Below, one piece after another: positions 33,437 to 49,292 of a stretch of DNA of 64,000 bases (its first letter is position 1; the number at the start of each line of letters is the position of its first letter). The notes below the pieces were generated by a model. That model was given only the letters and a program-made list of their open reading frames with translations, did no database searches and was not told the origin of the DNA. Source of the stretch: Alphaproteobacteria bacterium. Lineage in GTDB: Bacteria; Pseudomonadota; Alphaproteobacteria; UBA828; JAPUJA01. The stretch lies in the NCBI GenBank assembly GCA_963694715.1, contig CAVOEB010000005.1:3447-67446 (forward strand). Reading direction: 5' to 3'. Position numbers and translations under genes: made by a program.

Positions 33437-33980
33437 GATCAACGCAGCGACGGGCCTGGTGGGCGCAGCCGGGGTACTACTCGCGCTCGCCATGGGGGCG
33501 GGCCGCATCGTAGCGCTGGGGCGCAAAGAACCTGTACTTAACGAGCTGTGCGCACTCGACCCGCGCCGGGTTTCGGCGCTCAAGATTACCCGCACGGCAG
33601 ATGACGCGCCCGCTATCCTCGACGCAGTCAACGGCGCAGCGGACATCATGCTCGACTGCGTCGGCGACATTCCAGATCCCGTCTCGACCCAGAACGCGCT
33701 CGCTGCCCTGGAACCGTATGGCTGCGCCCTGTTTGTCGGGGGCTGTTTTGGCGATCTCGCGGTCAACTACGAGTGGATGCTGGACAAGCAGATCACCATG
33801 CTCGGATCGAGTTGGTATCCGCGCCAGGGCACCGCTGAGATGGTGGGAATGATCGCCACGGGGGCGCTCGACGCCGAGGCGCTCAGAACGCGGGTGTTCT
33901 CGCTCGACGAAGCGAACGACGCGGTGCAATGGGCGGAGAAAGGACCGGGTGGGCTCGAGCACGCCGCCCTCGTGCCTTGA
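33426..33980 (+). pseudogene. C-terminal (Rossmann-domain) remnant of a medium-chain Zn-dehydrogenase/reductase
   Basis: LMINAATGLVGAAGVLLALAMGAGRIVALGR...DCVGD...LFVGG...SLDEANDAVQWAE corresponds to the cofactor domain and C-terminus of MDR alcohol dehydrogenases. The ~150-aa catalytic N-domain is missing. A TAA at 33423-33425 closes the frame upstream. Confidence 0.75.
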
Positions 33981-34125: not shown

Positions 34126-35145
34126 TCAGGAATAGTTCGCGCCGTAGCTGGCCCAGTCCCTATCGAATTTCGGGTGGAGCATATCGAGGAGCCCCGCGAG
34201 CCGGGGCTCCTCGTCGGGAAAATACTCCTTCATGCCGATGGCGTATTCCTGCTGCGAGACGAAGTAGTCGGGATCAAGCAGGGTAATCATGACCTCGCCC
34301 AGCACGCGGAGCATCGACATCATCTTGAAGGCGCGAACCTCGTGCAGGGTCGCTTCGATCTCCGCCGAATCGGCATCGGCAAAATAGGTCGCGACCGCGT
34401 AGCGATCCATCGCGTCGTCGGCGTCGATCCAGGTCAGCATGTCGGCAATATCCGACTTCGGGTTGCCGTAGGCCCCAGCATCCCAGTCGATGAACAGGAC
34501 CTCGCCCTTAGGGTTGAACATCATGTTCACATAGGCCAGGTCGTTGTGGGTGAAGACCGGGATAAACGGCCGTATGGCGCGCTCGAGCCGGTCGGTCACG
34601 TCGCGAAAATAAGGCACATCGCCGACCCAGGCCGAGGGCTGAAAATCCGAGGCTGCCACGCCCCGCTCCATGGTGTTGAGATAGCGGCGAATGGTGTGAA
34701 ACGGCCACCAGTAGCTGATCGTCTCCGCGATCGCGTCGGAGTTCGCGTGCAGCAGCTTCATCCGCTCGATGACGTGAGCCATCATCGCGGGTTCCTCGAT
34801 TTGCTCCTCGGTCATGACCGGAGAAGCGATGAAATCCGTGATCGTCAGGTTGGGCTCCCAGTAACGCAAGCAAGGCCCAACGCCCAGCTTGTGGGCCGCG
34901 AGCGTGCATTGGACGACGGAGGTCTGGCGGGTCCGGTATTGATCGACGCCGCAACGGATAGCATAGCGCTTGCCGTCGCCGTCGGTCGCAAAATAGGTAC
35001 GGTTGGTCAGCCCGCCGAAATGCTGCGAGACCTCGACCGCGCCGGTCCATAGGGGCAGGCTGCGGATATAGTTTTGGATCTCTTCGCTCGACCAGCTGCG
35101 CCGAATTCGCGAAATCTCGCTGCACTCGAAAACGGCGTCGCGCAT
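34126..35145 (-). CDS. Phosphotransferase of the APH / choline-ethanolamine-kinase fold
   Basis: 339 aa with Brenner-type motif FTHNDLAYVNMMF and FIDWDAGAYGNPKSDIADM. Last gene of the carboxylase-BVMO operon. Confidence 0.75.
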   Translation of the reverse strand: MRDAVFECSEISRIRRSWSSEEIQNYIRSLPLWTGAVEVSQHFGGLTNRTYFATDGDGKRYAIRCGVDQYRTRQTSVVQCTLAAHKLGVGPCLRYWEPNLTITDFIASPVMTEEQIEEPAMMAHVIERMKLLHANSDAIAETISYWWPFHTIRRYLNTMERGVAASDFQPSAWVGDVPYFRDVTDRLERAIRPFIPVFTHNDLAYVNMMFNPKGEVLFIDWDAGAYGNPKSDIADMLTWIDADDAMDRYAVATYFADADSAEIEATLHEVRAFKMMSMLRVLGEVMITLLDPDYFVSQQEYAIGMKEYFPDEEPRLAGLLDMLHPKFDRDWASYGANYS

Positions 35146-35177
35146 CTCGTTCTCCGGCCGCTGCGGGTGGATCGCCG

Positions 35178-36587
35178 TCAGAACGGCGGCCGCCGTTCGG
35201 CCCAGTTGAGTTCCTGTTCCAGCGCCTGCGCGACGCGCAACGGCGTTGCGTCATCGTGTCGCCAGCCGACGATCTGAAAGCCCGTCGGTAGGCCGTTGCC
35301 GGCAAAGCCCGAGGGCACGGAAATCGCCGGCAAGGTCAGCAAATTAAATGGGAAGGTCATCTCGTAATGGCAGAACTTCCCGTCTTTATCGTCGTGGCCA
35401 AAATTCGACTCCGGTGTTCCAACCTCGATTGCCGGCTGGGCGCTGGTCGGGCAGACCAGCCCGTCATAGCGGGAAAATATGGGCGCGATGGTTTCGGCCA
35501 AGCGGGTGCGAACCAGCTCGGTCCGCTTCAAATCCACTGCGCTTGCGGCCCGGCCACGCTCGACCGCCGCGACTAGGTCGGGCTCCATGCGATCGCGGAA
35601 CTCATCAAGACGATCGCCGACCACGAGGGCCGAGTAGACATCCCAATGGAGCCAGCCCGCCTCGTTGAGCTCGCGGCTCCAGGGCAGCTCGATCTCGTCG
35701 ACCGCAGCGCCCAGCGCGCGGAGCGTCGCGACCATTTTCCGGGTGTTCGCGACGATGTCGGGATCGACCGCGTAGTAGCCGAGATCGATGCTAAACACGA
35801 GTCGCACACCCGCGAGATCGGCCGAACCCGGCAAGGACACGGCAGGCAAGTCGGGTAGCGACGAAAAGTCGCGGTCGTCGGGGCCCTGGGCCGCGTTCAG
35901 AAAGAGCACCGCGTCCGAGACATGGTGGCAAAGCGGGCCAAAGCTGGTGTAGCTGTCGAACTGGCTCGGGAAGATATCGAAGGGGATCCGCCCCAGGCTG
36001 GGCTTGAGCCCCACGATGCCGCAGAACGACGCAGGCAATCGTATGGAACCACCCGCATCGCAGCCCTCGGCCAGCGGCACGCAGCCCGCCGCGACGGCAG
36101 CGGCCGCCCCGCCCGAAGAGCCGCCCGGCTGGTGGTCGAGATTCCAGGGGTTACGCGTCACACCCCAGAGCGGCGTGTCCATCTGGAAGGAATAGGCCAA
36201 CTCCGAGGTCACCGTCTTGCCCACCATGATAGCGCCAGCGTCCCGCAGTCGTTCGACGATCGCAGCATCCTGTTCGGGGATCCAGTTTTCATAGAGATAG
36301 GAGCCCTGGGTGGTGCGCTTGCCCTTGGTCGGCGTCATATCCTTGAACGCTATAGGAACCCCGTGCAACGGGCCCAGTGCCTCGCCTTTCACGACCGCCT
36401 CTTCGGCGGCCCGCGCGGCGGCAAGGGCCTCGTCGGCGTAGACGAAGCAGAAGCAGTTGAGCGCCGGGTTTACTTCCTCGATTCGATCGAGGCAATTTTG
36501 CACCACATCGACCGGGGAGAGCGCCCGGGTTCGGACCGCCGTGGCGATCTCGCCGGCGGACAGGCCGCACAGCTCAGGATCGCTCAT
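35178..36587 (-). CDS. Amidase-signature (AS) family amidase
   Basis: GGSSGGAAAAVAAG signature and a Ser-cisSer-Lys scaffold. Start trimmed to the ATG at 36587 (MSDPELCGLSAGEIA); 36617 is an alternative. Confidence 0.85.
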   Translation of the reverse strand: MSDPELCGLSAGEIATAVRTRALSPVDVVQNCLDRIEEVNPALNCFCFVYADEALAAARAAEEAVVKGEALGPLHGVPIAFKDMTPTKGKRTTQGSYLYENWIPEQDAAIVERLRDAGAIMVGKTVTSELAYSFQMDTPLWGVTRNPWNLDHQPGGSSGGAAAAVAAGCVPLAEGCDAGGSIRLPASFCGIVGLKPSLGRIPFDIFPSQFDSYTSFGPLCHHVSDAVLFLNAAQGPDDRDFSSLPDLPAVSLPGSADLAGVRLVFSIDLGYYAVDPDIVANTRKMVATLRALGAAVDEIELPWSRELNEAGWLHWDVYSALVVGDRLDEFRDRMEPDLVAAVERGRAASAVDLKRTELVRTRLAETIAPIFSRYDGLVCPTSAQPAIEVGTPESNFGHDDKDGKFCHYEMTFPFNLLTLPAISVPSGFAGNGLPTGFQIVGWRHDDATPLRVAQALEQELNWAERRPPF

Positions 36588-36662
36588 GGCTCGATAGCCC
36601 CCCATTTCGACGAGCACGCCGCGACACGCGCGCGCTGAGCCCGCCCCTTCAGGGGGCTGGGC

Positions 36663-38291
36663 TTAGCCAAGGGCAAAGCCTTCGTAGCCCTTTGAGACGA
36701 TCTCGTCGCATTTTTTTACATATTGAGGAAAGCCGATATAGGACAGGAAGACCCGCGCCTTGCCCGGGATGTTCGAGCCGACATACCAGGAATCCTGCAA
36801 CGGATAGACCGACCGGTCGGCCACTTCGTTGACATGAGCGACCCAGGCGTCCTGGGCTTCGGCCGTCGCCTCAATGCGGCTATGGCCGTGTTCTCGCATG
36901 TAGTCCAAGCAATCGGCGATGAACTCGACATGCTGTTCGATGGACTGAACCATATTGCTCAAGACCGACGGGCTGCCCGGTCCGGTGATCATGAACAGGT
37001 TGGGAAAGCCCGCAACGCTGAGCCCCAGAAGCGTGCGCGCGCCATTATCCCAGTTGGCGGCGAAAGACAGGCCGCCCCGGCCGCGGATATCGACACGCGT
37101 AAGCGCGCCAGTCACGGCGTCGAAGCCAGTAGCAAAGACGATGGCGTCGAGCTCGCACTCCCTATCGCCGACCCGAAGCCCGGTCGGTGTGATCTCCTCG
37201 ATCGGCGTTTTGCTCACATCGACGAGGGTGACGTTCTCCCGGTTATAAGTGGCGTAGTAGTCCGTATCGACGCACAACCGCTTGCACCCAATCAGAAAAT
37301 GGGGCGAAAGACTTTTGGCGACCTCCGGATCGCGAACAGTCTCACGGATCTTTGAACGGACATATTCGCCCGCGGTGTCGTTGGCCTCGACTGTGTCGAA
37401 CAGATCGGCGTACGCGCCCATATACGCGACCCCGCCCAGCGCCCAGCGGGCCGTATACTCGCGCTTGCGTTCTTCGGGCGTGACCTCGAAGGCGCTCTTT
37501 TCACTAACATCGAACAAGATGCCCGATCGGTTCTGCCTCGCCTTGGCGCGAAGTTCGGCGTAATGGGCCTTGAAGTCCTGCTGCTTTTCGGGAGAAAGCA
37601 GCTTGTTATGAGCCGGCACGCTGAAGCTCGGCGTACGCTGGAAGACAAGGAGCTGCTTCGCCTGCTCCGCGATCAGCGGGATAGCCTGGATACCCGACGA
37701 CCCGGTGCCGATGACGCCGACCCGCTGGCCGCTGAAATCGACCCCCGTCTCGGGCCAGTCGCCGGTGTGGTAGGTGGCGCCCGTGAAGTTGTCCAGACCC
37801 TTGAAATCCGGGATGTTGCGCGCCGACATGCAGCCCGTCGCCATGATGCAGAAGCGCGCCGTGACCACATCGTCGTGGTCGGTTTCAACGGTCCAGAGAG
37901 CGCCGTCTTCGTCGAAGTGCGCCCTCGTGACCCGAGTCTCGAACTGGATGTCGCGGCGCAGGTCGAAGCGGTCGGCAACGTGATCCAGGTAGCGCAGGAC
38001 CTCGGGCTGGGTGGCGTAGCGCTCGCTCCACTCCCACTCTTGCTGGAGCGCTTCGTCGAACTGGTAGGAATATTCCATGCTCTCGACATCGCAGCGCGCG
38101 CCGGGATAGCGGTTCCAGAACCAGGTCCCGCCGACCCCGCTGCCATCTTCGAAGACCCGTACGGAAAAGCCCATGCCACGCAGCTTATGGAGCATGTAGA
38201 GCCCGGCAAACCCGGCGCCGACAACGACGGCGTCAACTTCGCTTTCGGGAGCAGGACTATGGGTTTGGGATGACGATTGCGCAGACGACAT
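36663..38291 (-). CDS. Baeyer-Villiger monooxygenase (type I, FAD/NADPH)
   Basis: 542 aa with GAGFAG, GGTWFWNRYPGARCD, BVMO fingerprint FTGATYHTGDWP and a second Rossmann motif GVIGTGSSG. Confidence 0.88.
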   Translation of the reverse strand: MSSAQSSSQTHSPAPESEVDAVVVGAGFAGLYMLHKLRGMGFSVRVFEDGSGVGGTWFWNRYPGARCDVESMEYSYQFDEALQQEWEWSERYATQPEVLRYLDHVADRFDLRRDIQFETRVTRAHFDEDGALWTVETDHDDVVTARFCIMATGCMSARNIPDFKGLDNFTGATYHTGDWPETGVDFSGQRVGVIGTGSSGIQAIPLIAEQAKQLLVFQRTPSFSVPAHNKLLSPEKQQDFKAHYAELRAKARQNRSGILFDVSEKSAFEVTPEERKREYTARWALGGVAYMGAYADLFDTVEANDTAGEYVRSKIRETVRDPEVAKSLSPHFLIGCKRLCVDTDYYATYNRENVTLVDVSKTPIEEITPTGLRVGDRECELDAIVFATGFDAVTGALTRVDIRGRGGLSFAANWDNGARTLLGLSVAGFPNLFMITGPGSPSVLSNMVQSIEQHVEFIADCLDYMREHGHSRIEATAEAQDAWVAHVNEVADRSVYPLQDSWYVGSNIPGKARVFLSYIGFPQYVKKCDEIVSKGYEGFALG

Positions 38292-38351
38292 GGATACACC
38301 TCTAGCTCGTGCGCGGGGGCAGTCAAAGATTTGGTCGCGTCGGGGCTCGTG

Positions 38352-39836
38352 TCAAGCGGATATGGCCACTCGGCGGTGGCGGCGGAGCGTAAGCGAGGTT
38401 TCCTGATCCTCATAACGCAGGTAATTCGTGTCGACCATTCGGATTAACGAGGCGACCGTCTCCAGCTCGGGCGAAGACAGGGTGGAAAAATCGCGACGCG
38501 TTGGGCCGGCGGCACGCATCTTTTCGATATCGCTTTCAGGCACCAACGCACGCAGAAACAGCTCGTCGTCGGAGAGGTCGGCGCCAAGCTCCTTGCGTAG
38601 CTCTTCTAGGGTGGGTTGGGGCGGCGGCGTATTGGCAACCTGCTTTGCGCGCGGCGCGCTCATGATGCGATCGAGAATGTCCGGCTTGATCTCGCCCACG
38701 GGCTCGCCGTAAAGGCCTGCGGCATACTGGATGACCTCGTCGGGGATCACCGAATAGCGCTTGCCGGTGACGACGTTGAGCACCGCGAGAGTACCCACGA
38801 GCTGGGAAAACGGCGTCGCCATCCCCGGATAGCCGAGCTCGCGGCGGACCACCGCGGTCTCGCGCAGGACGTCGCCGTATTTTTCGGGCATGCCATGCTG
38901 GGCGAGCTGGTTCTTGAAGGTACCCGTCATGCCGCCCGGCACCTGATGTTGGGCGTAAAATAGGTCGTACTCCTGGGGCACGCCGACGGCGTAGCCCATC
39001 GCCTTAGCGACCGCGCGGAAATTTTCCTCGATGGCGGGGCAGTGGGACAGATCGAGCCCGTGGCTGTGTCCGGCAGCCTCCATATTACGCGCCATGGTGT
39101 CGACCGAAGGCGGCGCGGGACCGTCCGAGAGCGGCCGGTTGCAGGTGTGGAACCGGTCGATCCCGAGCTCGACCGCCGCCAGGTAGGTGTGTGAGGCGAT
39201 GCCGATCGAATTATGGCAGATCAGCTCGATTGTCCGCCCGCCCGCCGCCGCCTGGATCCCAGGGATCAGGGTGCGCGCGCGCTCGGGCGTGAGCACACCG
39301 GATGCGTCGTAAATGAGAAAACGGTCGACGTCGGGACTGGCGGCATAGAGTTTCGTGCGCTCGGCATAAAAGGCGTCCGTATGCACCGGGCTGTCGGCAT
39401 AGAACAGCGCGATGACGACCATTGCATCAGTCTCCTTCGCAACCCTCGCAAGCCGGTGGGCCTTATCGGCATTGGCAAGCAGCACGTCATAGATCCAGAC
39501 CGTGTCCATACCGTGGGCACAGAGCCGGCGCATCCAGAGGTCCATGATCGAATCGGGCGAGACCGAAAAGGTCACAGCCGCGTTGGTCCGCATGCCCGCG
39601 CGGAACCGGCTGTTGGGCATGGATGCCACCATCAAGTCCAGGCCCTCCCAGGGATCTTCCTGGCAATAGCGGATCAGCACTTCGAACTGGGAACTCCCGC
39701 CTATGTCGACGACCTCGTAACCGACCTTGTCGATCAGCGGCGTGGCGGGCAGCGCCTGGCCCGCCTGCATGCGCATGCCCCAGTGACATTGCTGGCCGTC
39801 GCGCAGCGTGGTGTCGATAAACTCGATGTGGGCCAT
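38352..39836 (-). CDS. Carboxyltransferase subunit of the pyruvate-carboxylase/oxaloacetate-decarboxylase (5S, HMGL-like) type, without biotinyl domain; atypical active-site motifs
   Basis: 494 aa with FIDTTLRDGQQ, EDPWEGL and HQVPGGMTGTFKNQL...PFSQLVGTLAVLNV matching the OadA/PycB fold. IYDASG replaces the usual IKDMAG, and ICHNSIG replaces H-x-H-D-T-S-G. Confidence 0.75.
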   Translation of the reverse strand: MAHIEFIDTTLRDGQQCHWGMRMQAGQALPATPLIDKVGYEVVDIGGSSQFEVLIRYCQEDPWEGLDLMVASMPNSRFRAGMRTNAAVTFSVSPDSIMDLWMRRLCAHGMDTVWIYDVLLANADKAHRLARVAKETDAMVVIALFYADSPVHTDAFYAERTKLYAASPDVDRFLIYDASGVLTPERARTLIPGIQAAAGGRTIELICHNSIGIASHTYLAAVELGIDRFHTCNRPLSDGPAPPSVDTMARNMEAAGHSHGLDLSHCPAIEENFRAVAKAMGYAVGVPQEYDLFYAQHQVPGGMTGTFKNQLAQHGMPEKYGDVLRETAVVRRELGYPGMATPFSQLVGTLAVLNVVTGKRYSVIPDEVIQYAAGLYGEPVGEIKPDILDRIMSAPRAKQVANTPPPQPTLEELRKELGADLSDDELFLRALVPESDIEKMRAAGPTRRDFSTLSSPELETVASLIRMVDTNYLRYEDQETSLTLRRHRRVAISA

Positions 39837-39840
39837 GGTG

Positions 39841-41211
39841 TCAGCCTTCCTGGGCGTTGACGGCGAGCATCAGAACAGATTCGAGCCAGCGCACGCTCAC
39901 CCCGCCCCGGACGAAATCGGGATGGGCGAGCAGTGCGCGCTGAAACGCGATATTGGTCTCGATCCCTTCGACGGCGAAGTCGTCGAGGGCGGCGCCCAGC
40001 CGCGCCAGCGCCTCGGCGCGGGTCGGCGCATAGGCGATCAGCTTGCCAATCATGGAATCATAGAATGGGGGCACCAGATCGCCCTCACGAATGTGGCTGT
40101 CGAGGCGCAGGCCCTCGCCCGCTGGCGGGCGCCAGGTGGTGACGCGCCCTGGCGAGGGCGCAAAATCCCGGCCCGGCGATTCCGCGTTGATACGGCACTC
40201 GATCGCATGACCGCGAAGCACAACGTCGGCCTGGGCAAACGATAGCGGCGCGCCGCCCGCGATGCGCAGTTGCTCACGCACGATATCGATGCCGGTAACC
40301 ATCTCCGTGACCGGGTGCTCGACCTGGATGCGGGCGTTCATCTCGATGAAGCAGGGTTTGCCCCGGTCCATGTTGTAGAGAAACTCCACGGTTCCCGCGT
40401 TGCGATACCCGATATGGCGCACGAGCTGAAGCGCGGCTTCATGCAGACGGGCACGGGCCGCATCGGGCAGCACCGGAGCTGGCGCCTCCTCGACGACCTT
40501 CTGGTAGCGCCGTTGGGCGGAACAATCCCGCTCGCCGAGATGGACCGCGTTGCCGTGGTCGTCGGCCAGCACCTGCACCTCGATATGCCGGGCGTTGGCA
40601 ATAAAGCGCTCCATATAGAGCGTACCGTCGTTGAACGCGGCGGCCGCTTCCGCAGACGCTTTTTCAAAGCAGCCGCGAATCGCGTCAGCATCCGTGGCGA
40701 CGAACATGCCCCGCCCGCCCCCACCGGCCGCGGCCTTGATGACCACGGGGTAGCCCATCGCGTCCGCGCGGGCTACGGCCTCGTCCACCGAGCCCACCGC
40801 TTCCGAGCCCGGCATCAGCGGCACGCCCGCCTCGGCCGCGACGCGCCGGGCGGCGATCTTGTCGCCCAACTGCTCGATGGTCTCGGGCCGGGGCCCGATG
40901 AAGAGAATACCGTTCTCGGCGCACGCGCGGGCGAAACCGGCGTTCTCGGCGAGGAACCCGTAGCCGGGATGGAGCGCGTCGCAGCCCGTGCCCTTCGCGG
41001 CCATGACTAAGGCGCCGGGATTGAGGTAACTGGCTTGGGCAGCCGCGGGACCGACGCAAATGGCGCGCTCGGCCAGCTCGGCGCCGCGGCCCTCGCGATC
41101 GGCCTCGGAGACGCCGAGCACGGTCTCGATGCCCTCGGCGTGACACGCCTCGATGACCCGGACCGCGATCTCGCCCCGGTTCGCGACGAAGACGCGCGCG
41201 AGAGTGCCCAT
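39841..41211 (-). CDS. Biotin carboxylase subunit (ATP-grasp)
   Basis: 456 aa with RVFVANRGEIAVRVIEA, GYPVVIKAAAGGGGRGM, EMNARIQVEHPVTE and HAIECRINAE. Confidence 0.9.
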   Translation of the reverse strand: MGTLARVFVANRGEIAVRVIEACHAEGIETVLGVSEADREGRGAELAERAICVGPAAAQASYLNPGALVMAAKGTGCDALHPGYGFLAENAGFARACAENGILFIGPRPETIEQLGDKIAARRVAAEAGVPLMPGSEAVGSVDEAVARADAMGYPVVIKAAAGGGGRGMFVATDADAIRGCFEKASAEAAAAFNDGTLYMERFIANARHIEVQVLADDHGNAVHLGERDCSAQRRYQKVVEEAPAPVLPDAARARLHEAALQLVRHIGYRNAGTVEFLYNMDRGKPCFIEMNARIQVEHPVTEMVTGIDIVREQLRIAGGAPLSFAQADVVLRGHAIECRINAESPGRDFAPSPGRVTTWRPPAGEGLRLDSHIREGDLVPPFYDSMIGKLIAYAPTRAEALARLGAALDDFAVEGIETNIAFQRALLAHPDFVRGGVSVRWLESVLMLAVNAQEG

Positions 41212-41226
41212 AAACCGGTCGCGCGC

Positions 41227-41694
41227 TCAGTCGAGGGGATCGAGGCGGAAAAGCGGCTGATCGAATTCGACCATCTCGCCATCCTCAACCAGCACCTCGA
41301 CGATGCGCCCTTTGCTCCCCGCCTTAATCGGCGTGAACAGCTTCATGACCTCGATCAGGCAGACCTCGGTGTCCTCGTCGACGGTCGCGCCGATCTCGAT
41401 ATAGGCCGGCGCGCCGGGTTTGGGCCGGCGCCAGAACGTGCCTAGATTCGGCGCACGGACGAGCAAACCCTCGACCGGCTGGGGCGGCGAGGCAGGTGCG
41501 GGTGTCGTCGCGGGCTTTGTCGAGACAGGGGCTGGTGGCGTATCGGAGCGAGCGCTGGAGAAACCGCCATCGACATTGTCGGGATCGGTCGAGAGAAGCA
41601 ACGTCGCACCACCGACCTTGAGGCGCATTTCATCCCAGCCGGATTCGCGAAAAACGCGCGTGATCTGCTCGATATCCTGTTCGGTCAGTGCCAC
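41227..41694 (-). CDS. Biotin carboxyl carrier protein
   Basis: C-terminal biotinyl domain with VCLIEVMKLFTPIKA (E-x-MK-L biotinylation motif) after a Pro/Ala linker. Start placed at the GTG at 41694, preceded by GGGAG. The ORF track extends to 41817. Confidence 0.8.
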   Translation of the reverse strand: MALTEQDIEQITRVFRESGWDEMRLKVGGATLLLSTDPDNVDGGFSSARSDTPPAPVSTKPATTPAPASPPQPVEGLLVRAPNLGTFWRRPKPGAPAYIEIGATVDEDTEVCLIEVMKLFTPIKAGSKGRIVEVLVEDGEMVEFDQPLFRLDPLD

Positions 41695-41748
41695 GCTCCC
41701 TACCCCTCGTGTAACGCGCCCGGAATAGGTCAGCTTAGGCGGAAACAG

Positions 41749-41761
41749 ATTGTCAGACAAT
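41749..41761. promoter_or_regulatory. Candidate FadR-type GntR operator ATTGTCaGACAAT
   Basis: Perfect 6+1+6 palindrome fitting the T-GT-N3-AC-A FadR-subfamily pattern. It lies 55 nt upstream of the BCCP start, in the surE/BCCP divergent region. A near-identical copy is at 43554-43566. Confidence 0.5.
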
Positions 41762-41834
41762 ATCGTCTTGCGTATGCTCAGGCGTAGAGCCCGCCCGCCG
41801 GCTCTCGCCAGCCACAATCAAGGAACGAATTTCC

Positions 41835-42620
41835 ATGACCGCAGCACTGGTCGATCCGGCCAACCTTCGAATTTTGATTGTCAACGACGACGGCGTTCAC
41901 GCGCCGGGCATCGAGCGGATGGAGGCGTTCGCACACGAATTGTCGGACGACGTATGGATCGTGGCGCCGGAATACGACCAAAGCGGCACGGGCCATTCTC
42001 TGACGCTGGTCGATCCCATCCGTATCCGTCAATTGGGGGGAAAGCGCTTCGCCGTGCGCGGCACGCCAACCGACTGCGTGGTGATGGCGCGCAACCAGAT
42101 CATGCGGGACGCACTTCCCACCCTGGTGCTTTCGGGTGTGAACCGGGGGCTCAACGCCGCTGAGGACGTGACCTATTCGGGCACCATCGCGGGCGCCATG
42201 GAAGCGACGCTGCTGGGCATCCCGGCGATCTGCCTCAGCCAGGCCTTCCGCAACCGCAACGACGTAAAGTGGCAGACCGCGGAGCGTTACGGCCCCGATC
42301 TTCTGGCCCGGCTGATCGCTCATGGTTGGCCGGTGGGCACGTTTCTCAATGTCAACTTTCCTCCGGTCGACCCCGACGAGGTCAAGGGGGTGAAAATCAC
42401 CTGCCAGGGCCAGCGCGGCCAAAGTTCGCTCCAGATCACCGACCGCATCGACGCCCGCGGCTTTCCCTATTACTGGCTGCACCTCGACCACGAGAAGGCC
42501 GCCTACCCCGAGGATACGGACCTGGCAGCCCTCGACGCGGGCTACATCTCGGTAACCCCGCTGCAGCTCGATCTGACCAATCACGCCGCAATAGATTCAC
42601 TGCACGCGGCGCTGGCCTAG
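41835..42620 (+). CDS. surE: 5'/3'-nucleotidase SurE
   Basis: 261 aa with ILIVNDDGVHAPGI, GTGHSLT and SGVNRGLNAAEDVTYSGTIAGAMEA. Confidence 0.92.
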   Translation: MTAALVDPANLRILIVNDDGVHAPGIERMEAFAHELSDDVWIVAPEYDQSGTGHSLTLVDPIRIRQLGGKRFAVRGTPTDCVVMARNQIMRDALPTLVLSGVNRGLNAAEDVTYSGTIAGAMEATLLGIPAICLSQAFRNRNDVKWQTAERYGPDLLARLIAHGWPVGTFLNVNFPPVDPDEVKGVKITCQGQRGQSSLQITDRIDARGFPYYWLHLDHEKAAYPEDTDLAALDAGYISVTPLQLDLTNHAAIDSLHAALA

Positions 42621-42676
42621 CCGAGGCTTATGCCAGGTAAAGTGGTCGACTGACGCCACGTGGAAACGACGGTGCG

Positions 42677-43429
42677 TCAGCCACCGGCGGCGAACAGAGA
42701 ATCAGGCAGACGATCCAGGCGCGCACGCGTACGCCGTAAGTGGCGGCGCATGGCGCGCTCCGCGCCGCGCGCATCGCTCGCAAGAACCGACGCGGCGATG
42801 GCCTCGTATTCTTCAAAGAAATGGCGCGACGACGCCACCAGGGTCATCTGGCGGAACTGCATGCGCATCAGGTGCATCTGGAGCAGCGGTGTACTGTGCG
42901 AGAGTTCGAGGTTCCCGCCGATCTGCACCAGCGTGTCGTAAAACTCCGTGCGCGCCTGCATCAGCGCCATGCCCTCGGGGTGGGTACGAAATTGGAGCAC
43001 CCTTTCGAGCGCCGCCTCGAACCTGGCGCGGTGATCCGCTTCGCCGATCCGCTCGGCGGCCAGGCCTGCCCCGAGCGTGGCGAGACGCTCGAAGACCGCC
43101 AAAATATCGTGCATATCCGAGCGCGAAAGTGAGCGGACGTAGGCGCCACGATGGGCCACCAGGTCGATCAGCCCTTCCGCCGCAAGCCGCTTGAGCGCCT
43201 CGCGCACCGTGCCGCGCGAGACGCCGTACTCCGCGGTCAGATCGGCTTCGATCAACCGTTGACCCGGGACATAACGGCCCGACTGGATCCCGTCATTGAG
43301 CGCCGCCACAAGCTGGTCGGGCGAACTGGGACCGTGGCGTGGCGCGGCGGCGCGGCGAGCAGTGCTAATTGGGGCGGTCGTTGCAGTCACGAGAGTCTTC
43401 TTTTGTGGTTGGCGACGATTGCCGATCAT
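42677..43429 (-). CDS. GntR-family transcriptional regulator, FadR/FCD subfamily
   Basis: 250 aa with wHTH LIEADLTAEYGVSRGTVREALKRLAAEGLI and an all-helical FCD-like C-domain. Confidence 0.85.
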   Translation of the reverse strand: MIGNRRQPQKKTLVTATTAPISTARRAAAPRHGPSSPDQLVAALNDGIQSGRYVPGQRLIEADLTAEYGVSRGTVREALKRLAAEGLIDLVAHRGAYVRSLSRSDMHDILAVFERLATLGAGLAAERIGEADHRARFEAALERVLQFRTHPEGMALMQARTEFYDTLVQIGGNLELSHSTPLLQMHLMRMQFRQMTLVASSRHFFEEYEAIAASVLASDARGAERAMRRHLRRTRARLDRLPDSLFAAGG

Positions 43430-43553
43430 CCGGCATAATTATCAAATCCCGCCGTCGCGAGATAGCCACTCGCTCGACCCGGCACCCGGCGGCTGGCGGT
43501 GGGGCCGGCGCGGATGTAAGCTGACTCGGATCGGGGAAATCTCCAACCTGAAT

Positions 43554-43566
43554 ATTGTCGGACAAT
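43554..43566. promoter_or_regulatory. Candidate FadR-type GntR operator ATTGTCgGACAAT
   Basis: Perfect 6+1+6 palindrome in the divergent region between the GntR gene (start 43429) and the thiolase-like gene (start 43611). Differs from the 41749-41761 copy only at the central base. Confidence 0.55.
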
Positions 43567-43610
43567 TGTATAGCTATCCGACCGCCTGCCCCCCCTTGGG
43601 AGAAGACGAT

Positions 43611-44777
43611 ATGACCGGATGCATGGTAGGCTGGGCCCATACGCCCTTCGGCAGGCTCGACGACGAGGACACGGAATCGCTGATCGTGCGCGTCGTGCGC
43701 GAGGCAGTGGCTGATGCGGACATCGGCTTCGAGGATATCGACGAGATCGTCCTCGGCCAATATAACGGCGGCTTCGATCCCCAGGGTTTTCCCTCCTCCC
43801 TGGCACTTCAGGCCGACCCGGCACTTCGCTTCACACGGACCACCCGTGTCGAGAATGCCTGTGCGACAGGCACGGCGGCGATCTACCAGGGCCTGCGCAG
43901 CCTGGAGGCAAAGCAAGCCCGCTTCGTACTCGCCATCGGCGTTGAAAAGATGACCGCGGCCGAGCGCGCGCGGGTCCCCAAGATTCTGCTGAGCGGCAGC
44001 TACGTCAAGGAAGAGGCGGACATCGAGGGCGGCTTCGCCGGTATTTTCGCGCAAGTTGCGCGGGCCTATTTCCAGCGCTTCGGCGAGCAAAGCGACGCCA
44101 TGGCGCGAATCGCCGCGAAAAATCACAAGAACGGCTCGGTCAACCCCTACGCCCATGTGCGCAAGGACCTGGGTTTCGAATTCTGCCGCACGGTCTCGGA
44201 CAAGAACCCAATGGTCTGCGATCCCTTGCGGCGCACCGATTGCTCGATGGTCTCGGACGGCGCCGCCGCGGTCGTGCTGACCGATACCGCCACCGCGCTG
44301 GGGCGGAAGAAGGCGGTAATCTTTCGCGCCGCCCAGCAGGTCAACGATTTTCTACCCATGAGCCGGCGCGACGTGGTGCTCTACGAAGGACCGGAGCGGG
44401 CTTTCCAGAAAGCCTATGATGAAGCCGGAGTGAGCGTGAACGATCTCGATTTTGCCGAGGTCCACGACTGCTTCACCATCGCCGAGCTGATGATCTACGA
44501 GGCCATGGGCCTGACGCCGAAAGGCGAAGGCGCGCGCGCCATCGACGAGGGCTGGACCGAGAAGAACGGTCGCTTGCCGGTCAACCCCTCGGGCGGGCTG
44601 AAGGCCAAGGGCCACCCCATCGGCGCCACGGGAGTCTCGATGCATGTGGTCGCCGCCGAGCAGCTCATGGGCAGTGCGGACGCCATGCAGATCTCCGGCG
44701 CCGAGCTCGGCGCCGTGTTCAACATGGGCGGTGCCGGGGTCGCCAATTGCACGAGTCTGCTCGAGCGCCTGCGCTGA
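43611..44777 (+). CDS. Thiolase-fold protein (SCP-x/lipid-transfer-type thiolase-like)
   Basis: Start trimmed to the ATG at 43611 (RBS GGGAGAAG). Contains [12 protein letters not shown] (active-site Cys), GHPIGATGV and NMGGAG. Confidence 0.8.
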
Positions 44778-44800
44778 GCCTTTTTTTTCAGGAGTATGTC

Positions 44801-46192
44801 ATGACCGAGCTTCGCCCGAACGAGCCGGACCTTGCCGCCCTCGACCGGGCGGGCATGATCCACCCCTTCTCGCAACTCCACGATCAGGCGCGCAAGGACC
44901 CTCTGATTTTCACCCACGGACAAGGTGTGACTATCACGGACGCGGCCGGGCGCGACTATATCGACGCGGGTTCGTCCCTGTGGTGCGTCAACGTCGGCTA
45001 TGGGCGCGACGAGATCGTCGAAGCGGCGGCCGAGCAGATGCGCACCCTGCCCTTCGTTCATATCTTCAGCAGCAACTCCCACGCACCGGTCATTCGTCTG
45101 ACCGAGAAGCTGCTCGAATTGGCGCCCGCCAATATGTCCAAGGTGCTCTTCGGCAACGGCGGCTCGGACGCGAACGACACCCAGGTCAAGATCGCCTGGT
45201 ACTACAACAACGCCCGCGGTAAACCCGCCAAAAAGAAGATCATTTCGCGGCGGCGTGCGTATCACGGCGCCACGGTCGTCGCGGGTAGCCTTACGGGTCA
45301 TGAGATCGTCCATAGCGGCTTCGACCTGCCGCTCGATTTCGTGCGCCATACCGACTGTCCCGACTGGCATCGGCGCGGCGACGCGGCCCAGACGCCCGAG
45401 GAGCACGCAACCGCACTGGCCGAGCAGCTCGACGCACTGATCGAAGCGGAGGGTCCGGACACGGTCGCCGCCTTCATCTCCGAGCCGATCATGGGCGGCG
45501 GCGGCGTGCTCGTGCCCCCGCCGGCCTACGGCCCCGCGGTGCAGGAGGTGCTGGCCCGGCACGACGTGCTGTTTATTGCCGACGAGGTGATCTGCGGCTT
45601 CGGTCGTACGGGAAACTGGTGGGGCTCGGAGACGGTGGGTTTTGCGCCTGACCTGATGAGCGTCGCCAAAGGCATCACCAGCGCCTATCTACCCATGTCG
45701 GCCTGCCTGATCTCGGACAAGGTGTGGGAGGCGCTCGATGCCGGCGCGGCGACGCTGGGCCCGTTCGGCCACGGCTTTACGACTACAGGGCACCCGGTGG
45801 CCGCGGCGGTGGCGCTCAAGAATATAGAGATTATCGAACGCGAGGACCTGGTGGGCAATTCGCGGCGTACCGGCGATTACCTGATCGCGCGACTGCGTGC
45901 CGAACTGGGCGATCACCCGTTGGTCGGCGAGATCCGGGGGGCAGGATTGCTGGCCGGGGTCGAACTCGATGCCGACAAGGAAACTCGCACGCCTTTCGAA
46001 GATGCGATGGCGGTGGGCTCGCGGCTCGGTAAGCTGTGCCTTGAGAATGGGCTGATCGTGCGCGGTGCGCTGGGCAAAGCGGTCGCCGCCATGGCGCCGC
46101 CCCTGATCGCCACCGAATCCGACGCCGACGAGATCGTCGCGCGACTGGGCCGCTCCCTCGACCAACTGCATGATGCCCTCCAGGCCGAGTAG
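44801..46192 (+). CDS. Class-III PLP-dependent aminotransferase (omega-amine:pyruvate transaminase-like)
   Basis: Start trimmed to the ATG at 44801 (RBS AGGAG). Contains [37 protein letters not shown] and [10 protein letters not shown] (PLP Lys). Confidence 0.85.
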
Positions 46193-46224
46193 ACCGGTGC
46201 GGGCACGGTGATGAAGGGAAGAGC

Positions 46225-46992
46225 ATGACGGAACCCAGGAAAGTCGCGATCGTTACCGGCTCGGCCACGGGGATCGGCGCGGCTTGCGCGCTGAGACTGG
46301 CGGGCCACGGCTATAACGTCGTCATCAACTGCACGGCAAGCCTCACAGAGGCGGAGGAGACCGCCGCGGCGTGCCGCGAGGCAGGTGTCGAAGTACTGAT
46401 CTTGCCCGCCGACGTCGCCGACGACGGCCAATGCCGCGCGCTCGCCCAGGCGGCACTCGACGCCTGGGGGCGAATCGACGCACTGATCAACAACGCTGGG
46501 CGAACCAAATTCGTCAAGGCCGAAGACTTCGAAGGGCTGACCGCCGAGGATTTCCAGTCGATCTACGCCGTGAACACGGTGGGCGCGTTCCAGACCGCGC
46601 GGGCCGCCGCGGACGCCCTACGCGCGGCTAATGGCGCGCTCGTCAACGTCTCCTCGCTGTCCGCTTATACGGGCCTGGGAAGCTCGATCGCCTATGCCGC
46701 GTCGAAGGGCGCGCTCAATACCCTGACCCTCTCGCTCGCCCAGACCTTAGCTCCCGAGGTACGGGTCAACGCTGTCTGTCCCGGCTATGTGGACACCCGC
46801 TGGATGCAGCGGACCATGGAGCCGGACCGCTACGAGCGGTTTCTGGCGGGCTTGCGCAAGCATGCGCCGCTGGCCACCGTGACCCAGGCCGACGACGTTG
46901 CCGAAGCGGTGTGCTGGTTCGTCGAGGGCGGGCGCACGATTACCGGCCAGATGCTGACCATCGACGCGGGCATGCACCTGACCATGGGGTGA
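46225..46992 (+). CDS. Short-chain dehydrogenase/reductase (classical SDR)
   Basis: 255 aa with TGSATGIG, NNAG and YAASKGAL (catalytic Y-x3-K). Confidence 0.88.
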   Translation: MTEPRKVAIVTGSATGIGAACALRLAGHGYNVVINCTASLTEAEETAAACREAGVEVLILPADVADDGQCRALAQAALDAWGRIDALINNAGRTKFVKAEDFEGLTAEDFQSIYAVNTVGAFQTARAAADALRAANGALVNVSSLSAYTGLGSSIAYAASKGALNTLTLSLAQTLAPEVRVNAVCPGYVDTRWMQRTMEPDRYERFLAGLRKHAPLATVTQADDVAEAVCWFVEGGRTITGQMLTIDAGMHLTMG

Positions 46993-46999
46993 GGCCGGC

Positions 47000-47704
47000 T
47001 CAGTCGCCCGGTGCGACGCGGATCAGGCTCGCCTGGGTTTCCCGTTTGGTCGGGAAGGTAAACGCCACCACGATACCGTCCCCTCCGTACCATACGGCGC
47101 CGGCGCGCACGTCCGAGCCGTCCGGGGTGCGAAACTCCACATCGTAGCGTCGGCCGGAAACCGACGCTTCTTCGAGCGTCGTTGTTTCCTCGCCCACGAG
47201 TTGCGCCGTGAATTCCTTGGTCCGGCCCTTGAGCGGGTTGAGCAGGCGACTCGCCTTCAACGCGACCTCGCACCAGACGGTCCAGGACAGCAACGCCGCA
47301 TCAACGATCGTCGGTGCATCGCCCGCCTTGTGCAGGCGGAGCCCGGTGCCCTCGGGCAGCACGGTAATGATACGCTCGCGGCCGTTATCGACGGTCATGC
47401 CGTCGAACCGTTCGAATAGGCCGTTGCGCCAGACCTCGGTCGATTCGTGACGGTAATTGAGCACGGGTATGACATAGGCGAGCGTGATCCCGATATCGAT
47501 GACCGTGTAGATGGCCATCTCTGCGCCGTTGGCCTGAATAGAAATTTTAAGCCTTCCGACGTCGTCGCCCTCATGGATGATCCGGTAGACGATCGGCCCG
47601 GACGGGGGCTGACAGTCGTCAGGCGCCCCGGCACTGATCTTTCCCGCCGCGACGAGCCCCAAAATAGGCGCCAGAAAAAGCGCTGTCAGGAGATTTCGGA
47701 TCAC
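47000..47704 (-). CDS. Hypothetical exported protein
   Basis: Start placed at the GTG at 47704, which overlaps the M24 stop (GTGA). Signal-like VIRNLLTALFLAPILGLVAAGKISAG. I recognise no motif. The upstream 139 aa of track ORF 47000..48121 are antisense or overlap artefact. Confidence 0.55.
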   Translation of the reverse strand: MIRNLLTALFLAPILGLVAAGKISAGAPDDCQPPSGPIVYRIIHEGDDVGRLKISIQANGAEMAIYTVIDIGITLAYVIPVLNYRHESTEVWRNGLFERFDGMTVDNGRERIITVLPEGTGLRLHKAGDAPTIVDAALLSWTVWCEVALKASRLLNPLKGRTKEFTAQLVGEETTTLEEASVSGRRYDVEFRTPDGSDVRAGAVWYGGDGIVVAFTFPTKRETQASLIRVAPGD

Positions 47705-48882: not shown

Positions 48883-48936
48883 TCTCGGCCCTCCTTAAGG
48901 GCGCGGGCATGCGCCGACCCTCTGATCGCGCGGGCC

Positions 48937-49254
48937 CTACTCTTCCGGCGCGAGGGTGACGCGCAGCCCGTCGAGCGCGTCGGAATATTCGATCTGACAA
49001 CTCAGACGCGATGTCTTTTTGTCGTAGCCGGGCGCGTCCTGGACCAGATCGACCTCCTCCTCGTCGGGCGCGGTGAGGCGCTCGAGCCAGGTGGGGCCGA
49101 CAAAGACATGGCAGGTCGCGCAGGCGCAGCAGCCGCCGCACACGGCTTCGATTTCCATGTCGTTATCCTTGAGATTCTCCATCAGGCTCAGCCCGGTCTC
49201 GCCGTCAAACCGGTGTTCCTTGCCCTCGCGGTCGATACAGGTGATCTGCGCCAA
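48937..49254 (-). CDS. [2Fe-2S] ferredoxin, adrenodoxin/putidaredoxin type
   Basis: 105 aa with CGGCCACATCHV plus distal SRLSCQI cysteine ligands. Confidence 0.9.
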   Translation of the reverse strand: MAQITCIDREGKEHRFDGETGLSLMENLKDNDMEIEAVCGGCCACATCHVFVGPTWLERLTAPDEEEVDLVQDAPGYDKKTSRLSCQIEYSDALDGLRVTLAPEE

Positions 49255-49292
49255 CGGTCTATTCCTTCTGATTCTTGTTAGTCGTCCGCGCG

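What the first reader, a model, noticed from the sequence alone, without database searches (positions are those of the whole stretch)
41749..43566. The same 13-bp GntR/FadR-type palindrome precedes two accessory operons that flank surE, suggesting one uncharacterised regulon
ATTGTCaGACAAT (41749-41761) lies 55 nt upstream of the BCCP-first operon. ATTGTCgGACAAT (43554-43566) lies between the FadR-type GntR gene (42677-43429) and the thiolase-like/omega-transaminase/SDR operon (43611-46992).

Both are perfect 6+1+6 palindromes fitting the FadR-subfamily T-GT-N3-AC-A operator rule. I found no further copy by eye in the window.

This ties nine enzyme genes on both sides of the housekeeping gene surE to a single local repressor: three carboxylase subunits, BVMO, amidase, kinase, thiolase-fold protein, transaminase and SDR. 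I cannot match this enzyme set to a known pathway.
Basis: partly seen in the sequence, partly recalled or inferred. Interest (0 to 1): 0.7.

Follow-up and report, generated by a model that had tools for sequence, protein, structure and literature searches.

The report
Shared GntR operator for ketone-catabolism genes
Two identical 13-bp palindromes are very probably the binding sites of the neighbouring GntR/FCD regulator, which would switch on and off a local set of ketone-degrading genes that also includes the supposedly 'housekeeping' surE; this is an ordinary kind of regulatory circuit controlling a not yet characterised pathway.

Summary
ATTGTCAGACAAT (41749-41761) and ATTGTCGGACAAT (43554-43566) are the only exact copies in 64 kb, against 0 in 100 shuffles. 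Both lie in divergent intergenic regions beside a GntR/FCD regulator gene.

Comparative data support an operator role. Both sites are kept in the metagenomic relatives that span them (GntR 80-89% identical) while flanking DNA drifts. Across 82 loci encoding related regulators, ATTGT-N3-ACAAT occurs 40 times in the 450 bp upstream of the regulator gene. Composition-matched control palindromes give 0-1.

The interpretation needs one correction. surE is probably a third target, not a bystander. Site 1 lies 74 nt upstream of surE and contains the -35 box of a predicted surE promoter, inside a 40-bp block invariant among relatives. SurE genes with the same motif upstream recur in distant loci.

The enzymes share a ketone theme. 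They include a PAMO/STMO-like Baeyer-Villiger monooxygenase, omega-transaminase, SDR, and a PycB-like carboxyltransferase with altered metal ligands. Distant regulator orthologues control carboxylase, CoA-ligase and thiolase clusters resembling 4-hydroxyacetophenone carboxylation in Aromatoleum.

Verdict: a new member of a known regulatory kind. The pathway is unresolved. Interest is moderate to low.

The parts
41749..41761 (.). Operator 1, ATTGTCAGACAAT, in the surE/BCCP divergent intergenic region
   Evidence: Exact palindrome. Identical in 5 of 5 aligned relatives, inside a 40-bp invariant block.
43554..43566 (.). Operator 2, ATTGTCGGACAAT, in the gntR/thiolase-like divergent intergenic region
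   Evidence: Exact palindrome. Mean column identity is 0.97 in 6 relatives against 0.72 for the rest of the aligned region.
42677..43429 (-). GntR-family regulator of the FadR/FCD subfamily; the probable true start is the GTG at 43390 (237 aa)
   Evidence: PF00392 plus PF07729. Orthologues are 227-255 aa, mostly 237, and L001 has ACG where the window has the upstream ATG.
41750..41778 (+). Predicted sigma-70-type surE promoter, TTGTCA-17-TATGCT, with its -35 box inside operator 1
   Evidence: Only promoter-like hit in 41600-43700; both hexamers are invariant in relatives. The scan alone is not significant: 2 hits in 14 kb against 2.3 expected.
41732..41760 (-). Weaker mirror-image candidate promoter for the BCCP operon, TTGTCT-17-TAAGCT, with its -35 box in the other half of operator 1
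   Evidence: Read directly from the sequence; the elements are invariant in relatives. It falls below the scan threshold (4/6 plus 3/6), so this is inference.
41835..42620 (+). surE (5'/3'-nucleotidase/phosphatase family), proposed third transcription unit of the regulon
   Evidence: NF001490 scores 343 bits against a cut-off of 233. Its position is conserved in relatives, and the motif lies upstream of surE in L027, L028 and L088.
41227..41694 (-). Biotin carboxyl carrier protein, first gene of the minus-strand operon (GTG start)
   Evidence: PF00364 and TIGR00531-like; start fixed by alignment with relatives.
39841..41211 (-). Biotin carboxylase
   Evidence: NF006367 scores 626 bits against a cut-off of 597.
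38352..39836 (-). PycB/OadA/5S-like carboxyltransferase with altered metal ligands (Lys to Tyr; first His of H-x-H to Ile)
   Evidence: PF02436 plus a weak PF00682 hit; below all NCBIfam cut-offs; PDB alignments and orthologue motifs.
36663..38291 (-). Type I Baeyer-Villiger monooxygenase, PAMO/STMO-like
   Evidence: phmmer against 1w4x gives 1.4e-197 (661 bits) and against 4ap1 1.1e-181. The FxGxxxHxxxWP fingerprint FTGATYHTGDWP is present in the translation.
35178..36617 (-). Amidase-signature hydrolase
   Evidence: PF01425 at 3e-104. Nearest solved structures are GatA and aryl acylamidase.
34126..35145 (-). APH/choline-kinase-like small-molecule kinase; variable, absent in some close relatives
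   Evidence: PF01633 and PF01636. Present in L001 and L084/85, absent in L081-83.
43611..44777 (+). SCP2-type thiolase-domain protein, first gene of the plus-strand operon
   Evidence: NF005704 scores 631 bits against a cut-off of 412.
44801..46192 (+). Class-III (omega) aminotransferase; variable, absent in L001, L081-83 and L087
   Evidence: NF004767 scores 581 bits against a cut-off of 517; presence and absence.
46225..46992 (+). Short-chain dehydrogenase/reductase
   Evidence: 87% identical to the L001 orthologue. The orthologues in L081-L087 are called adh_short/KR.

Best explanation
The two 13-bp palindromes are operators of the FCD-type GntR regulator encoded between them.

- A regulator dimer bound at site 1 would cover the overlapping -35 boxes of two divergent promoters. 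It would thereby control both surE and the BCCP-BC-CT-BVMO-amidase-kinase operon.
- A dimer at site 2 sits in the gntR/thiolase-like divergent region. It would control the thiolase-like-(transaminase)-SDR operon and probably gntR itself.
- By analogy with other FadR-subfamily regulators, the protein most likely represses until a pathway metabolite binds the FCD domain and releases it from DNA.
- The regulon is a modular catabolic unit built around ketones. The transaminase and SDR would generate a ketone from an amine or a secondary alcohol. The PAMO/STMO-like BVMO with the amidase-signature hydrolase, and the non-canonical biotin carboxylase, would consume it. The kinase and SurE would handle a phosphorylated intermediate.

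Shown: the sequence, position, conservation and clade-wide enrichment of the motif, and the gene families. Inferred: binding by this particular regulator, the sign of regulation, the promoters, the effector and the substrate.
For: - The two exact copies are the only ones in 64 kb, against 0 in shuffles.
- The regulator has a GntR wHTH plus an FCD domain. The motif matches the FadR-subfamily consensus of TKGT/ACMA boxes with GT-N3-AC spacing (PMC4494728).
- Both sites are retained in relatives with 80-89% identical regulators. Site 1 is invariant inside a 40-bp invariant block. Site 2 has 0.97 column identity against 0.72 for the rest of the aligned region.
- In 82 loci (close relatives excluded), ATTGT-N3-ACAAT with at most 1 mismatch occurs 40 times in the 450 bp upstream of the regulator gene. 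Nineteen permuted control palindromes give 0-1.
- In distant orthologous loci, motif-like sites again fall in divergent intergenic regions: thiolase/GntR, ACAD/SDR, SurE/PEP-utilizers and surE/thiolase-like.
- The -35 box of the predicted surE promoter lies inside site 1.
- Gene gaps within each operon are 4-60 nt.
- Ketone theme: the BVMO scores 661 bits against phenylacetone monooxygenase and 608 against steroid monooxygenase. Regulator orthologues are linked to AMP-ligase, a PPDK-like protein, BCCP-BC-CT and thiolase. This parallels HacABC/AcsA1/TioL1 of Aromatoleum (PMC10715001).
Against: - There is no binding or expression data.
- The motif is shared by a large clade of FCD regulators, so another paralogue in the unseen genome could bind these sites.
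- The promoter prediction is not statistically significant on its own. No convincing -10/-35 pair was found around site 2.
- No CoA ligase or transferase is present in the window operons, so the carboxylase-to-thiolase route is incomplete here.
- An amidase is an unusual partner for a BVMO.
- The SurE proteins found in such clusters do not form a visibly separate clade (46-55% identity to each other and to a canonical SurE).
- The transaminase and the kinase are dispensable in close relatives.
Confidence: 0.75

Rival explanations
1. The sites are real FCD-type operators, but they are bound mainly by a different paralogous GntR/FCD regulator encoded elsewhere in the genome. The adjacent regulator would have another specificity or share control with it.
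For: The same ATTGT-N3-ACAAT motif sits upstream of many only 31-58% identical regulators that share the recognition-helix signature. Several paralogues in one genome could therefore recognise it. L084/L085 carry a second GntR/FCD gene just beyond the kinase.
Against: Site 2 lies in the regulator's own divergent promoter region, the position where this clade almost always carries the motif. The regulator and both sites are inherited together in the relatives that span them. No second GntR of this clade is found in the 64-kb window.
Confidence: 0.1
2. The regulator binds the sites but acts as an activator, or with a different sign at each of the two sites, rather than as a simple repressor.
For: No clear promoter overlaps site 2. 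Its position 45 nt upstream of the thiolase-like start codon is also compatible with an upstream activator site if the leader is very short. Some FadR-subfamily proteins, FadR itself among them, both activate and repress (general knowledge).
Against: At site 1 the palindrome coincides with candidate -35 boxes, which is typical of repression by occlusion. Most characterised FCD regulators of catabolic operons are effector-released repressors (PMC4494728 background; general knowledge).
Confidence: 0.1
3. The palindromes are conserved only because they are back-to-back -35 promoter elements (TTGTCn / nGACAA), not transcription-factor sites.
For: TTGTCA resembles TTGACA. At site 1 both halves have a -10-like hexamer exactly 17 nt away.
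Against: Site 2 has the same 13-mer without matching -10 elements at the right spacing. The full 13-bp palindrome, including the outer A/T and the fixed 3-nt GT-to-AC spacing, is enriched about 40-fold upstream of related regulator genes in many taxa, whereas permuted palindromes are not.
Confidence: 0.04
4. The two copies are a chance coincidence.
For: None beyond the small sample of one window.
Against: There were 0 exact matches in 100 shuffles. Both positions are conserved in relatives, and the motif is enriched across the clade.
Confidence: 0.01

Closest known systems
FadR-subfamily (FCD) GntR repressors of catabolic operons, such as LldR, PdhR, GlcC, DgoR, ExuR and DipR
   Same: An N-terminal GntR wHTH plus an all-helical FCD domain. 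An A/T-rich palindromic operator with TKGT/ACMA boxes and GT-N3-AC spacing. Sites in the regulator's own divergent promoter region and in front of neighbouring catabolic operons.
   Different: It is below the cut-off of every named NCBIfam regulator model; the best is PhnR_burk at 79 bits against 271. The effector is unknown, the target genes differ, and no experiment has been done.
4-Hydroxyacetophenone carboxylation in Aromatoleum aromaticum EbN1: HacABC (formerly XccABC), AcsA1 CoA ligase and TioL1 thiolase
   Same: A three-part carboxylase encoded beside dehydrogenases that make a methyl ketone, and beside a thiolase. In distant regulator orthologues the cluster also holds an AMP-forming ligase (PMC10715001).
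   Different: The Aromatoleum pathway is controlled by the sigma-54 regulator EtpR, not by a GntR (PMC4630880 title). The window operon has no CoA ligase and adds a BVMO, an amidase, a kinase and SurE. Sequence relatedness to HacABC was not tested. The biotin dependence of HacABC is recalled from Wöhlbrand et al. 2008, which was not readable here.
BVMO-plus-hydrolase ketone routes with PAMO/STMO-type enzymes
   Same: The BVMO is a close homologue of phenylacetone monooxygenase (661 bits) and steroid monooxygenase (608 bits). It carries the type I fingerprint and is followed directly by a hydrolase gene.
   Different: The hydrolase is an amidase-signature enzyme, not an alpha/beta esterase. The BVMO shares an operon with a biotin carboxylase.
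Canonical SurE (serS-surE-pcm-lytM/nlpD locus)
   Same: It passes the SurE equivalog model (343 bits against 233) and keeps the N-terminal NDDG motif. It is 51% identical to the Azospirillum SurE that sits in the canonical locus.
   Different: Here surE lies between a GntR gene and a carboxylase operon and shares a predicted operator with that operon. serS, pcm and lytM are absent from the window.
Pyruvate carboxylase subunit B / oxaloacetate decarboxylase alpha / transcarboxylase 5S
   Same: The same fold families (HMGL-like TIM barrel plus the PYC_OADA domain), the conserved DTTLRDGQQ motif, and partner BC and BCCP genes.
   Different: The carbamylated Lys is replaced by Tyr and the H-x-H motif is changed in the whole orthologous family. 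It is below all equivalog cut-offs.

Membership tests
GntR family, FadR/FCD subfamily | N-terminal winged-HTH GntR domain | tested here: met
   PF00392 at 4.5e-17, residues 39-98.
GntR family, FadR/FCD subfamily | C-terminal all-helical FCD effector domain | tested here: met
   PF07729 at 1.1e-12, residues 108-232.
GntR family, FadR/FCD subfamily | Palindromic operator with TKGT/ACMA boxes and 3 nt between GT and AC | tested here: met
   ATTGTCNGACAAT occurs twice; the consensus is taken from PMC4494728.
GntR family, FadR/FCD subfamily | Operator located in the regulator's own or divergent promoter region, conserved among orthologues | tested here: met
   Site 2 lies in the gntR/thiolase intergenic region. 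There are 40 upstream hits in 82 loci against 0-1 for controls.
GntR family, FadR/FCD subfamily | Sequence-specific DNA binding that a small-molecule effector relieves | not testable with these tools
   Requires EMSA or footprinting with candidate ligands.
FadR sensu stricto (fatty-acid regulator) and PhnR_burk | Score above the NCBIfam equivalog cut-off | tested here: not met
   TIGR02812 scores 20.5 against 249; TIGR03338 scores 79.4 against 271.5.
SurE 5'/3'-nucleotidase | Score above the equivalog cut-off | tested here: met
   NF001490 scores 343 against 233; TIGR00087 scores 197 against 135.
SurE 5'/3'-nucleotidase (housekeeping copy) | Canonical neighbourhood with pcm, serS and lytM/nlpD | tested here: not met
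   The window neighbours are gntR and BCCP. The Azospirillum locus shows serS-surE-pcm-M23/LysM. Whether a second copy exists in the genome could not be tested.
Pyruvate carboxylase B / OadA / 5S carboxyltransferase | HMGL-like barrel plus the PYC_OADA domain | tested here: met
   PF02436 at 3e-27 and PF00682 at 3e-10.
Pyruvate carboxylase B / OadA / 5S carboxyltransferase | Metal-ligand set of Asp, carbamylated Lys (KDMAG) and H-x-H | tested here: not met
   YDASG replaces KDMAG and I-C-H replaces H-C-H in the alignment to 2nx9, 5ks8 and 1rqb. The same holds in all orthologues examined.
Pyruvate carboxylase B / OadA / 5S carboxyltransferase | Score above an NCBIfam equivalog cut-off | tested here: not met
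   The best hit, PRK09282, scores 304 against 402.
Type I Baeyer-Villiger monooxygenase | Close homology to characterised BVMOs and the FxGxxxHxxxW[P/D] fingerprint | tested here: met
   1w4x at 1.4e-197. FTGATYHTGDWP is present in the translation.
Hac-type ketone carboxylation pathway (carboxylase, then CoA ligase, then thiolase) | Adjacent beta-keto-acid CoA ligase | tested here: not met
   There is no AMP-binding gene in the window operons. One is present in the distant loci L002, L028 and L088-L090.
Hac-type ketone carboxylation pathway (carboxylase, then CoA ligase, then thiolase) | Orthology of the carboxylase subunits to HacABC | not tested

The most novel reading that the evidence does not exclude
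The regulon, and the wider set of clusters controlled by this GntR clade, may encode an undescribed route for methyl-ketone catabolism. It would use a distinct subfamily of biotin-dependent carboxylases, with a PycB-like CT whose carbamyl-Lys and His metal ligands are replaced. A phosphorylation/dephosphorylation cycle would accompany it, with an APH- or PPDK-type kinase and a recruited SurE, His_Phos_1 or ComB-like phosphatase. SurE would then act as a pathway enzyme rather than a stationary-phase nucleotidase.
Probability: 0.25. Interest if true: 0.6.

Novelty: new member of a known kind. Interest (0 to 1): 0.35.

Why it matters
The result gives a testable regulon for an uncultured alphaproteobacterium: two defined operators, three or four transcription units and a candidate effector class. 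It corrects the annotation-level view that surE here is a housekeeping bystander. It also yields a transferable operator rule, ATTGT-N3-ACAAT, for a large and widespread clade of FCD regulators, which can be used to delimit their regulons in other genomes.

The enzymology is the more interesting part. A carboxyltransferase family with a remodelled metal site is repeatedly linked to ketone-processing genes, kinases and phosphatases. That points to ketone carboxylation chemistry that has not been described biochemically. The regulatory logic itself is conventional.

Tried and rejected
- **Plasmid search.** Megablast of 41200-44000 against plasmids found only 80-82% matches to Azospirillum surE. 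This was useful only for showing the canonical serS-surE-pcm-lytM context.
- **Weak motif copies.** Those at 25314 and 41939 are intragenic and within chance expectation. The 41939 site is not conserved in L001, so both were rejected as operators.
- **Promoter scan as independent proof.** The 14-kb scan gave 2 hits against 2.3 expected, so the surE promoter call is used only together with its conservation.
- **A promoter at site 2.** Reading the sequence found no convincing -35/-10 pair in either direction.
- **SurE paralogy.** The identity matrix was inconclusive: cluster-linked SurEs are 46-55% identical both to each other and to canonical Azospirillum SurE.
- **Literature.** Searches for a described BVMO, biotin carboxylase and amidase cluster, for XccABC, and for biotin-dependent ketone carboxylases with PEP-utilising enzymes found nothing relevant. 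Wöhlbrand 2008 (PMC2519382) is not held, and PMC4630880 does not mention the carboxylase in its text.
- **Substrates considered and not adopted.** Urea/allophanate-type carboxylase plus amidase was rejected because the CT is of the wrong type. Nylon-oligomer, phospho-lyase and levulinate (lva) routes share only single enzyme families with this locus.
- **Searches not run.** Further 5.8-billion-protein searches on CT or SurE were not run, because generic source names were unlikely to settle the pathway.
Full report
**1. The observation**

An exact search for ATTGTCNGACAAT returns only these two sites in 64 kb, and 100 dinucleotide-preserving shuffles gave none. The reduced core TTGT-N3-ACAA also hits only these two.

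Allowing two mismatches adds sites at 25314 and 41939. Both are inside coding regions, and the count is within chance expectation. The 41939 site is not retained in relative L001.

**2. Gene map**

Minus strand:
- BCCP, 41227-41694, GTG start
- biotin carboxylase, 39841-41211
- PycB/OadA-like carboxyltransferase (CT), 38352-39836
- type I BVMO, 36663-38291
- amidase-signature amidase, 35178-36617
- APH/choline-kinase-like kinase, 34126-35145

Gaps between these genes are 4-60 nt.

Plus strand:
- surE, 41835-42620
- SCP2-type thiolase-like gene, 43611-44777
- class-III aminotransferase, 44801-46192
- SDR, 46225-46992

Gaps within the thiolase-to-SDR operon are 23-32 nt.

The GntR+FCD regulator (42677-43429, minus strand) is convergent with surE and divergent from the thiolase-like gene.

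Site 1 is therefore in the surE/BCCP divergent region, 74 nt from the surE ATG and 55 nt from the BCCP GTG. Site 2 is in the gntR/thiolase-like divergent region, 45 nt from the thiolase-like ATG.

**3. Conservation in close relatives**

A protein search with the regulator found seven close orthologues (80-99% identity) and then a drop to 63% or less. I fetched contigs for the 80-89% identical ones. Wherever the contig reaches, they keep the arrangement thiolase-like <> gntR, surE <> BCCP-BC-CT-BVMO-amidase.

The periphery is modular:
- The transaminase is absent in L001, L081-83 and L087.
- The kinase is absent in L081-83.
- A His_Phos_1 phosphatase gene is inserted between CT and BVMO in L084/85.
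- IS elements and a sensor kinase separate the thiolase-like gene from the SDR in some relatives.

Both palindromes are kept in every relative that spans them.

In the surE/BCCP alignment the motif lies in a 40-bp block that is invariant in five sequences: GAGCATACGCAAGACGATATTGTCTGACAATCTGTTTCCG.

In the gntR/thiolase alignment the motif has mean column identity 0.97, against 0.72 for the rest of the aligned region. The only variation is at the central base and one outermost base. That is the pattern expected for a dyad-symmetric protein site.

**4. Enrichment across the clade**

An alignment of regulator homologues retrieved 80 genomic loci. The conserved peptides used for retrieval were VPGQRL[IV]EA and [VL]SRG[PT][VI]REAL, that is, the DNA-binding region.

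Across all 90 loci, ATTGT-N3-ACAAT with at most 1 mismatch occurs 47 times in the 40 kb that lie within 450 bp upstream of the regulator gene. It occurs 42 times in the remaining 1.46 Mb, which is about a 40-fold enrichment.

With the close relatives removed, the real half-site gives 40 upstream hits. All 19 permutations of the half-site, arranged as the same kind of palindrome, give 0 or 1, with a mean of 0.2.

The commonest form is ATTGTAGGACAAT; the window's form is ATTGTC-N-GACAAT. The motif is thus the generic operator of a large FCD clade. It fits the published FadR-subfamily consensus of TKGT/ACMA boxes with three bases between GT and AC (PMC4494728).

In distant orthologous loci the best motif-like sites again lie in divergent intergenic regions:
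- thiolase/GntR and ACAD/SDR in L088-L090
- SurE/PEP-utilizers in L088
- surE/thiolase-like in L028

**5. surE is probably a target**

The only sigma-70-like promoter found in 41600-43700 is TTGTCA-17-TATGCT at 41750-41778 on the plus strand. It is a surE promoter whose -35 box is the left half of site 1.

The right half, read on the other strand, gives a weaker mirror-image candidate, TTGTCT-17-TAAGCT (41760-41732), facing BCCP. All four hexamers and both spacers lie in the conserved core of the intergenic alignment.

The promoter scan is not significant on its own: 2 hits in 14 kb against 2.3 expected. The promoters are therefore inference.

Three further observations point the same way:
- surE occupies this position in every relative whose contig covers the region.
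- Loci fetched only because of the regulator contain a SurE gene in L003, L027, L028 and L088. In L027, L028 and L088 the motif lies in the divergent region directly upstream of it.
- The canonical alphaproteobacterial neighbourhood, seen in Azospirillum, is serS-surE-pcm-M23/LysM. None of these neighbours is in the window.

The window SurE passes the SurE equivalog model and is 51% identical to the Azospirillum protein. Cluster-linked SurEs do not form an obvious separate clade. Whether the genome also has a canonical copy could not be tested.

**6. Likely mechanism**

A dimer of the FCD regulator at site 1 would occlude two overlapping divergent promoters, those of surE and the BCCP operon. 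A dimer at site 2 would control the thiolase-like operon and probably gntR itself.

Repression relieved by a metabolite is the usual behaviour of this subfamily. It fits the -35 overlap at site 1, but the sign of regulation is not shown.

Relatives lack the window's upstream ATG; L001 has ACG at that position. The regulator therefore probably starts at the GTG at 43390, giving 237 aa. Relatives also carry a second weak site, TTTGTCGGACGAT, about 40 nt upstream of that start. It is degenerate in the window.

**7. What the regulon does**

- **BVMO.** It is a close homologue of phenylacetone monooxygenase (661 bits) and steroid monooxygenase (608 bits), enzymes that convert methyl ketones into acetate esters.
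- **Amidase.** Its nearest solved relatives are GatA and aryl acylamidase. It could hydrolyse the ester or an amide analogue.
- **Transaminase and SDR.** These are enzyme types that make ketones from amines and from secondary alcohols.
- **Carboxyltransferase.** It resembles OadA, PycB and 5S. The carbamylated Lys of KDMAG is Tyr (YDASG) and the first His of H-x-H is Ile. The distant orthologues also have Tyr, and have F-H-[SA]-N in place of H-x-H. It is below every NCBIfam cut-off. I therefore do not file it as a pyruvate carboxylase subunit.
- **Distant regulator orthologues (45-58% identical).** They sit beside AMP-ligase, an unknown 200-aa protein, a PPDK_N/PEP-utilizers protein, BCCP-BC-CT and thiolase, plus 3-hydroxyacyl-CoA dehydrogenase, enoyl-CoA hydratase, ACAD, SDR and ADH genes. 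This looks like ketone carboxylation to a beta-keto acid, followed by CoA activation and thiolysis. The described parallel is HacABC/AcsA1/TioL1 for 4-hydroxyacetophenone in Aromatoleum (PMC10715001). The biotin dependence of HacABC is recalled from memory, not checked here.
- **Kinase and phosphatase pairing.** This recurs: APH kinase with SurE here, with His_Phos_1 in L084, and with a ComB-like phosphatase in L035. It hints at a phosphorylated intermediate.

The window operons lack a CoA ligase, so the substrate and the order of steps remain open. I give the ketone theme about 0.4-0.5 confidence.

**8. Verdict**

The operator interpretation is well supported by comparative evidence (confidence about 0.8). 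surE should be added to the regulon (about 0.65).

The regulatory design is a standard FadR/FCD circuit, so this is a new member of a known kind.

The less ordinary elements are the remodelled carboxyltransferase family and the recruited SurE. These justify follow-up but are not established here.

Noticed in passing
window 38352-39836 (-); orthologues in L001-L010 and L081-L090: The PycB/OadA-like carboxyltransferase has Tyr in place of the carbamylated Lys (YDASG/YDTAG for KDMAG). Its H-x-H motif is changed to I-C-H in the window group and F-H-[SA]-N in distant orthologues. The change is conserved across the whole family linked to these GntR regulators.
   Followed up: partly
L001, L081-L087 compared with window 34126-46992: The locus is modular among close relatives. 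The transaminase is absent in L001, L081-83 and L087, and the kinase is absent in L081-83. A His_Phos_1 phosphatase is inserted between CT and BVMO in L084/85. IS elements and a dCache sensor kinase are inserted between the thiolase-like gene and the SDR in L081-83 and L086.
   Followed up: partly
window 33014-33980: Overlapping fragments of a GMC-oxidoreductase C-terminal domain (minus strand) and a Zn-alcohol-dehydrogenase C-terminal domain (plus strand) lie just downstream of the kinase gene. They look like gene remnants.
   Followed up: no
window 43388-43429 (-): The annotated ATG start of gntR (43429) is not conserved; L001 has ACG there. Most close orthologues are 237 aa, matching a start at the GTG equivalent to window 43390, which gives a 237-aa protein.
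   Followed up: partly
L001:9991-10003 and the equivalent position in L081, L084 and L087; window about 43417-43429: Relatives carry a second, weaker motif copy (TTTGTCGGACGAT) about 40 nt upstream of the gntR GTG start, next to an invariant TTTGATAATT block. In the window this copy has decayed to 5 mismatches.
   Followed up: partly
L035:12076-13916: A 53% identical homologue of the APH-type kinase is followed directly by a 2-phosphosulfolactate-phosphatase-family (ComB-like) gene in a locus with a related GntR. This is a further case of kinase and phosphatase pairing.
   Followed up: no
L002, L028, L088, L089, L090: There is a widespread conserved cluster: AMP-ligase, an unknown protein of about 200 aa, a PPDK_N/PEP-utilizers protein of about 590 aa, BCCP-BC-CT and thiolase. 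In L028 and L088 there is also a PEP-utilizers protein of about 245 aa followed by an unknown protein of 517-565 aa. I found no description of this cluster in the searchable literature.
   Followed up: partly
window 47000-50513 (-): The plus-strand operon is flanked by DUF6134, a creatinase/M24-like peptidase, a 2Fe-2S ferredoxin (assigned from the syntenic relatives, not scanned in the window) and a ferredoxin reductase. This stretch is syntenic in all close relatives. No motif copy is associated with it.
   Followed up: no
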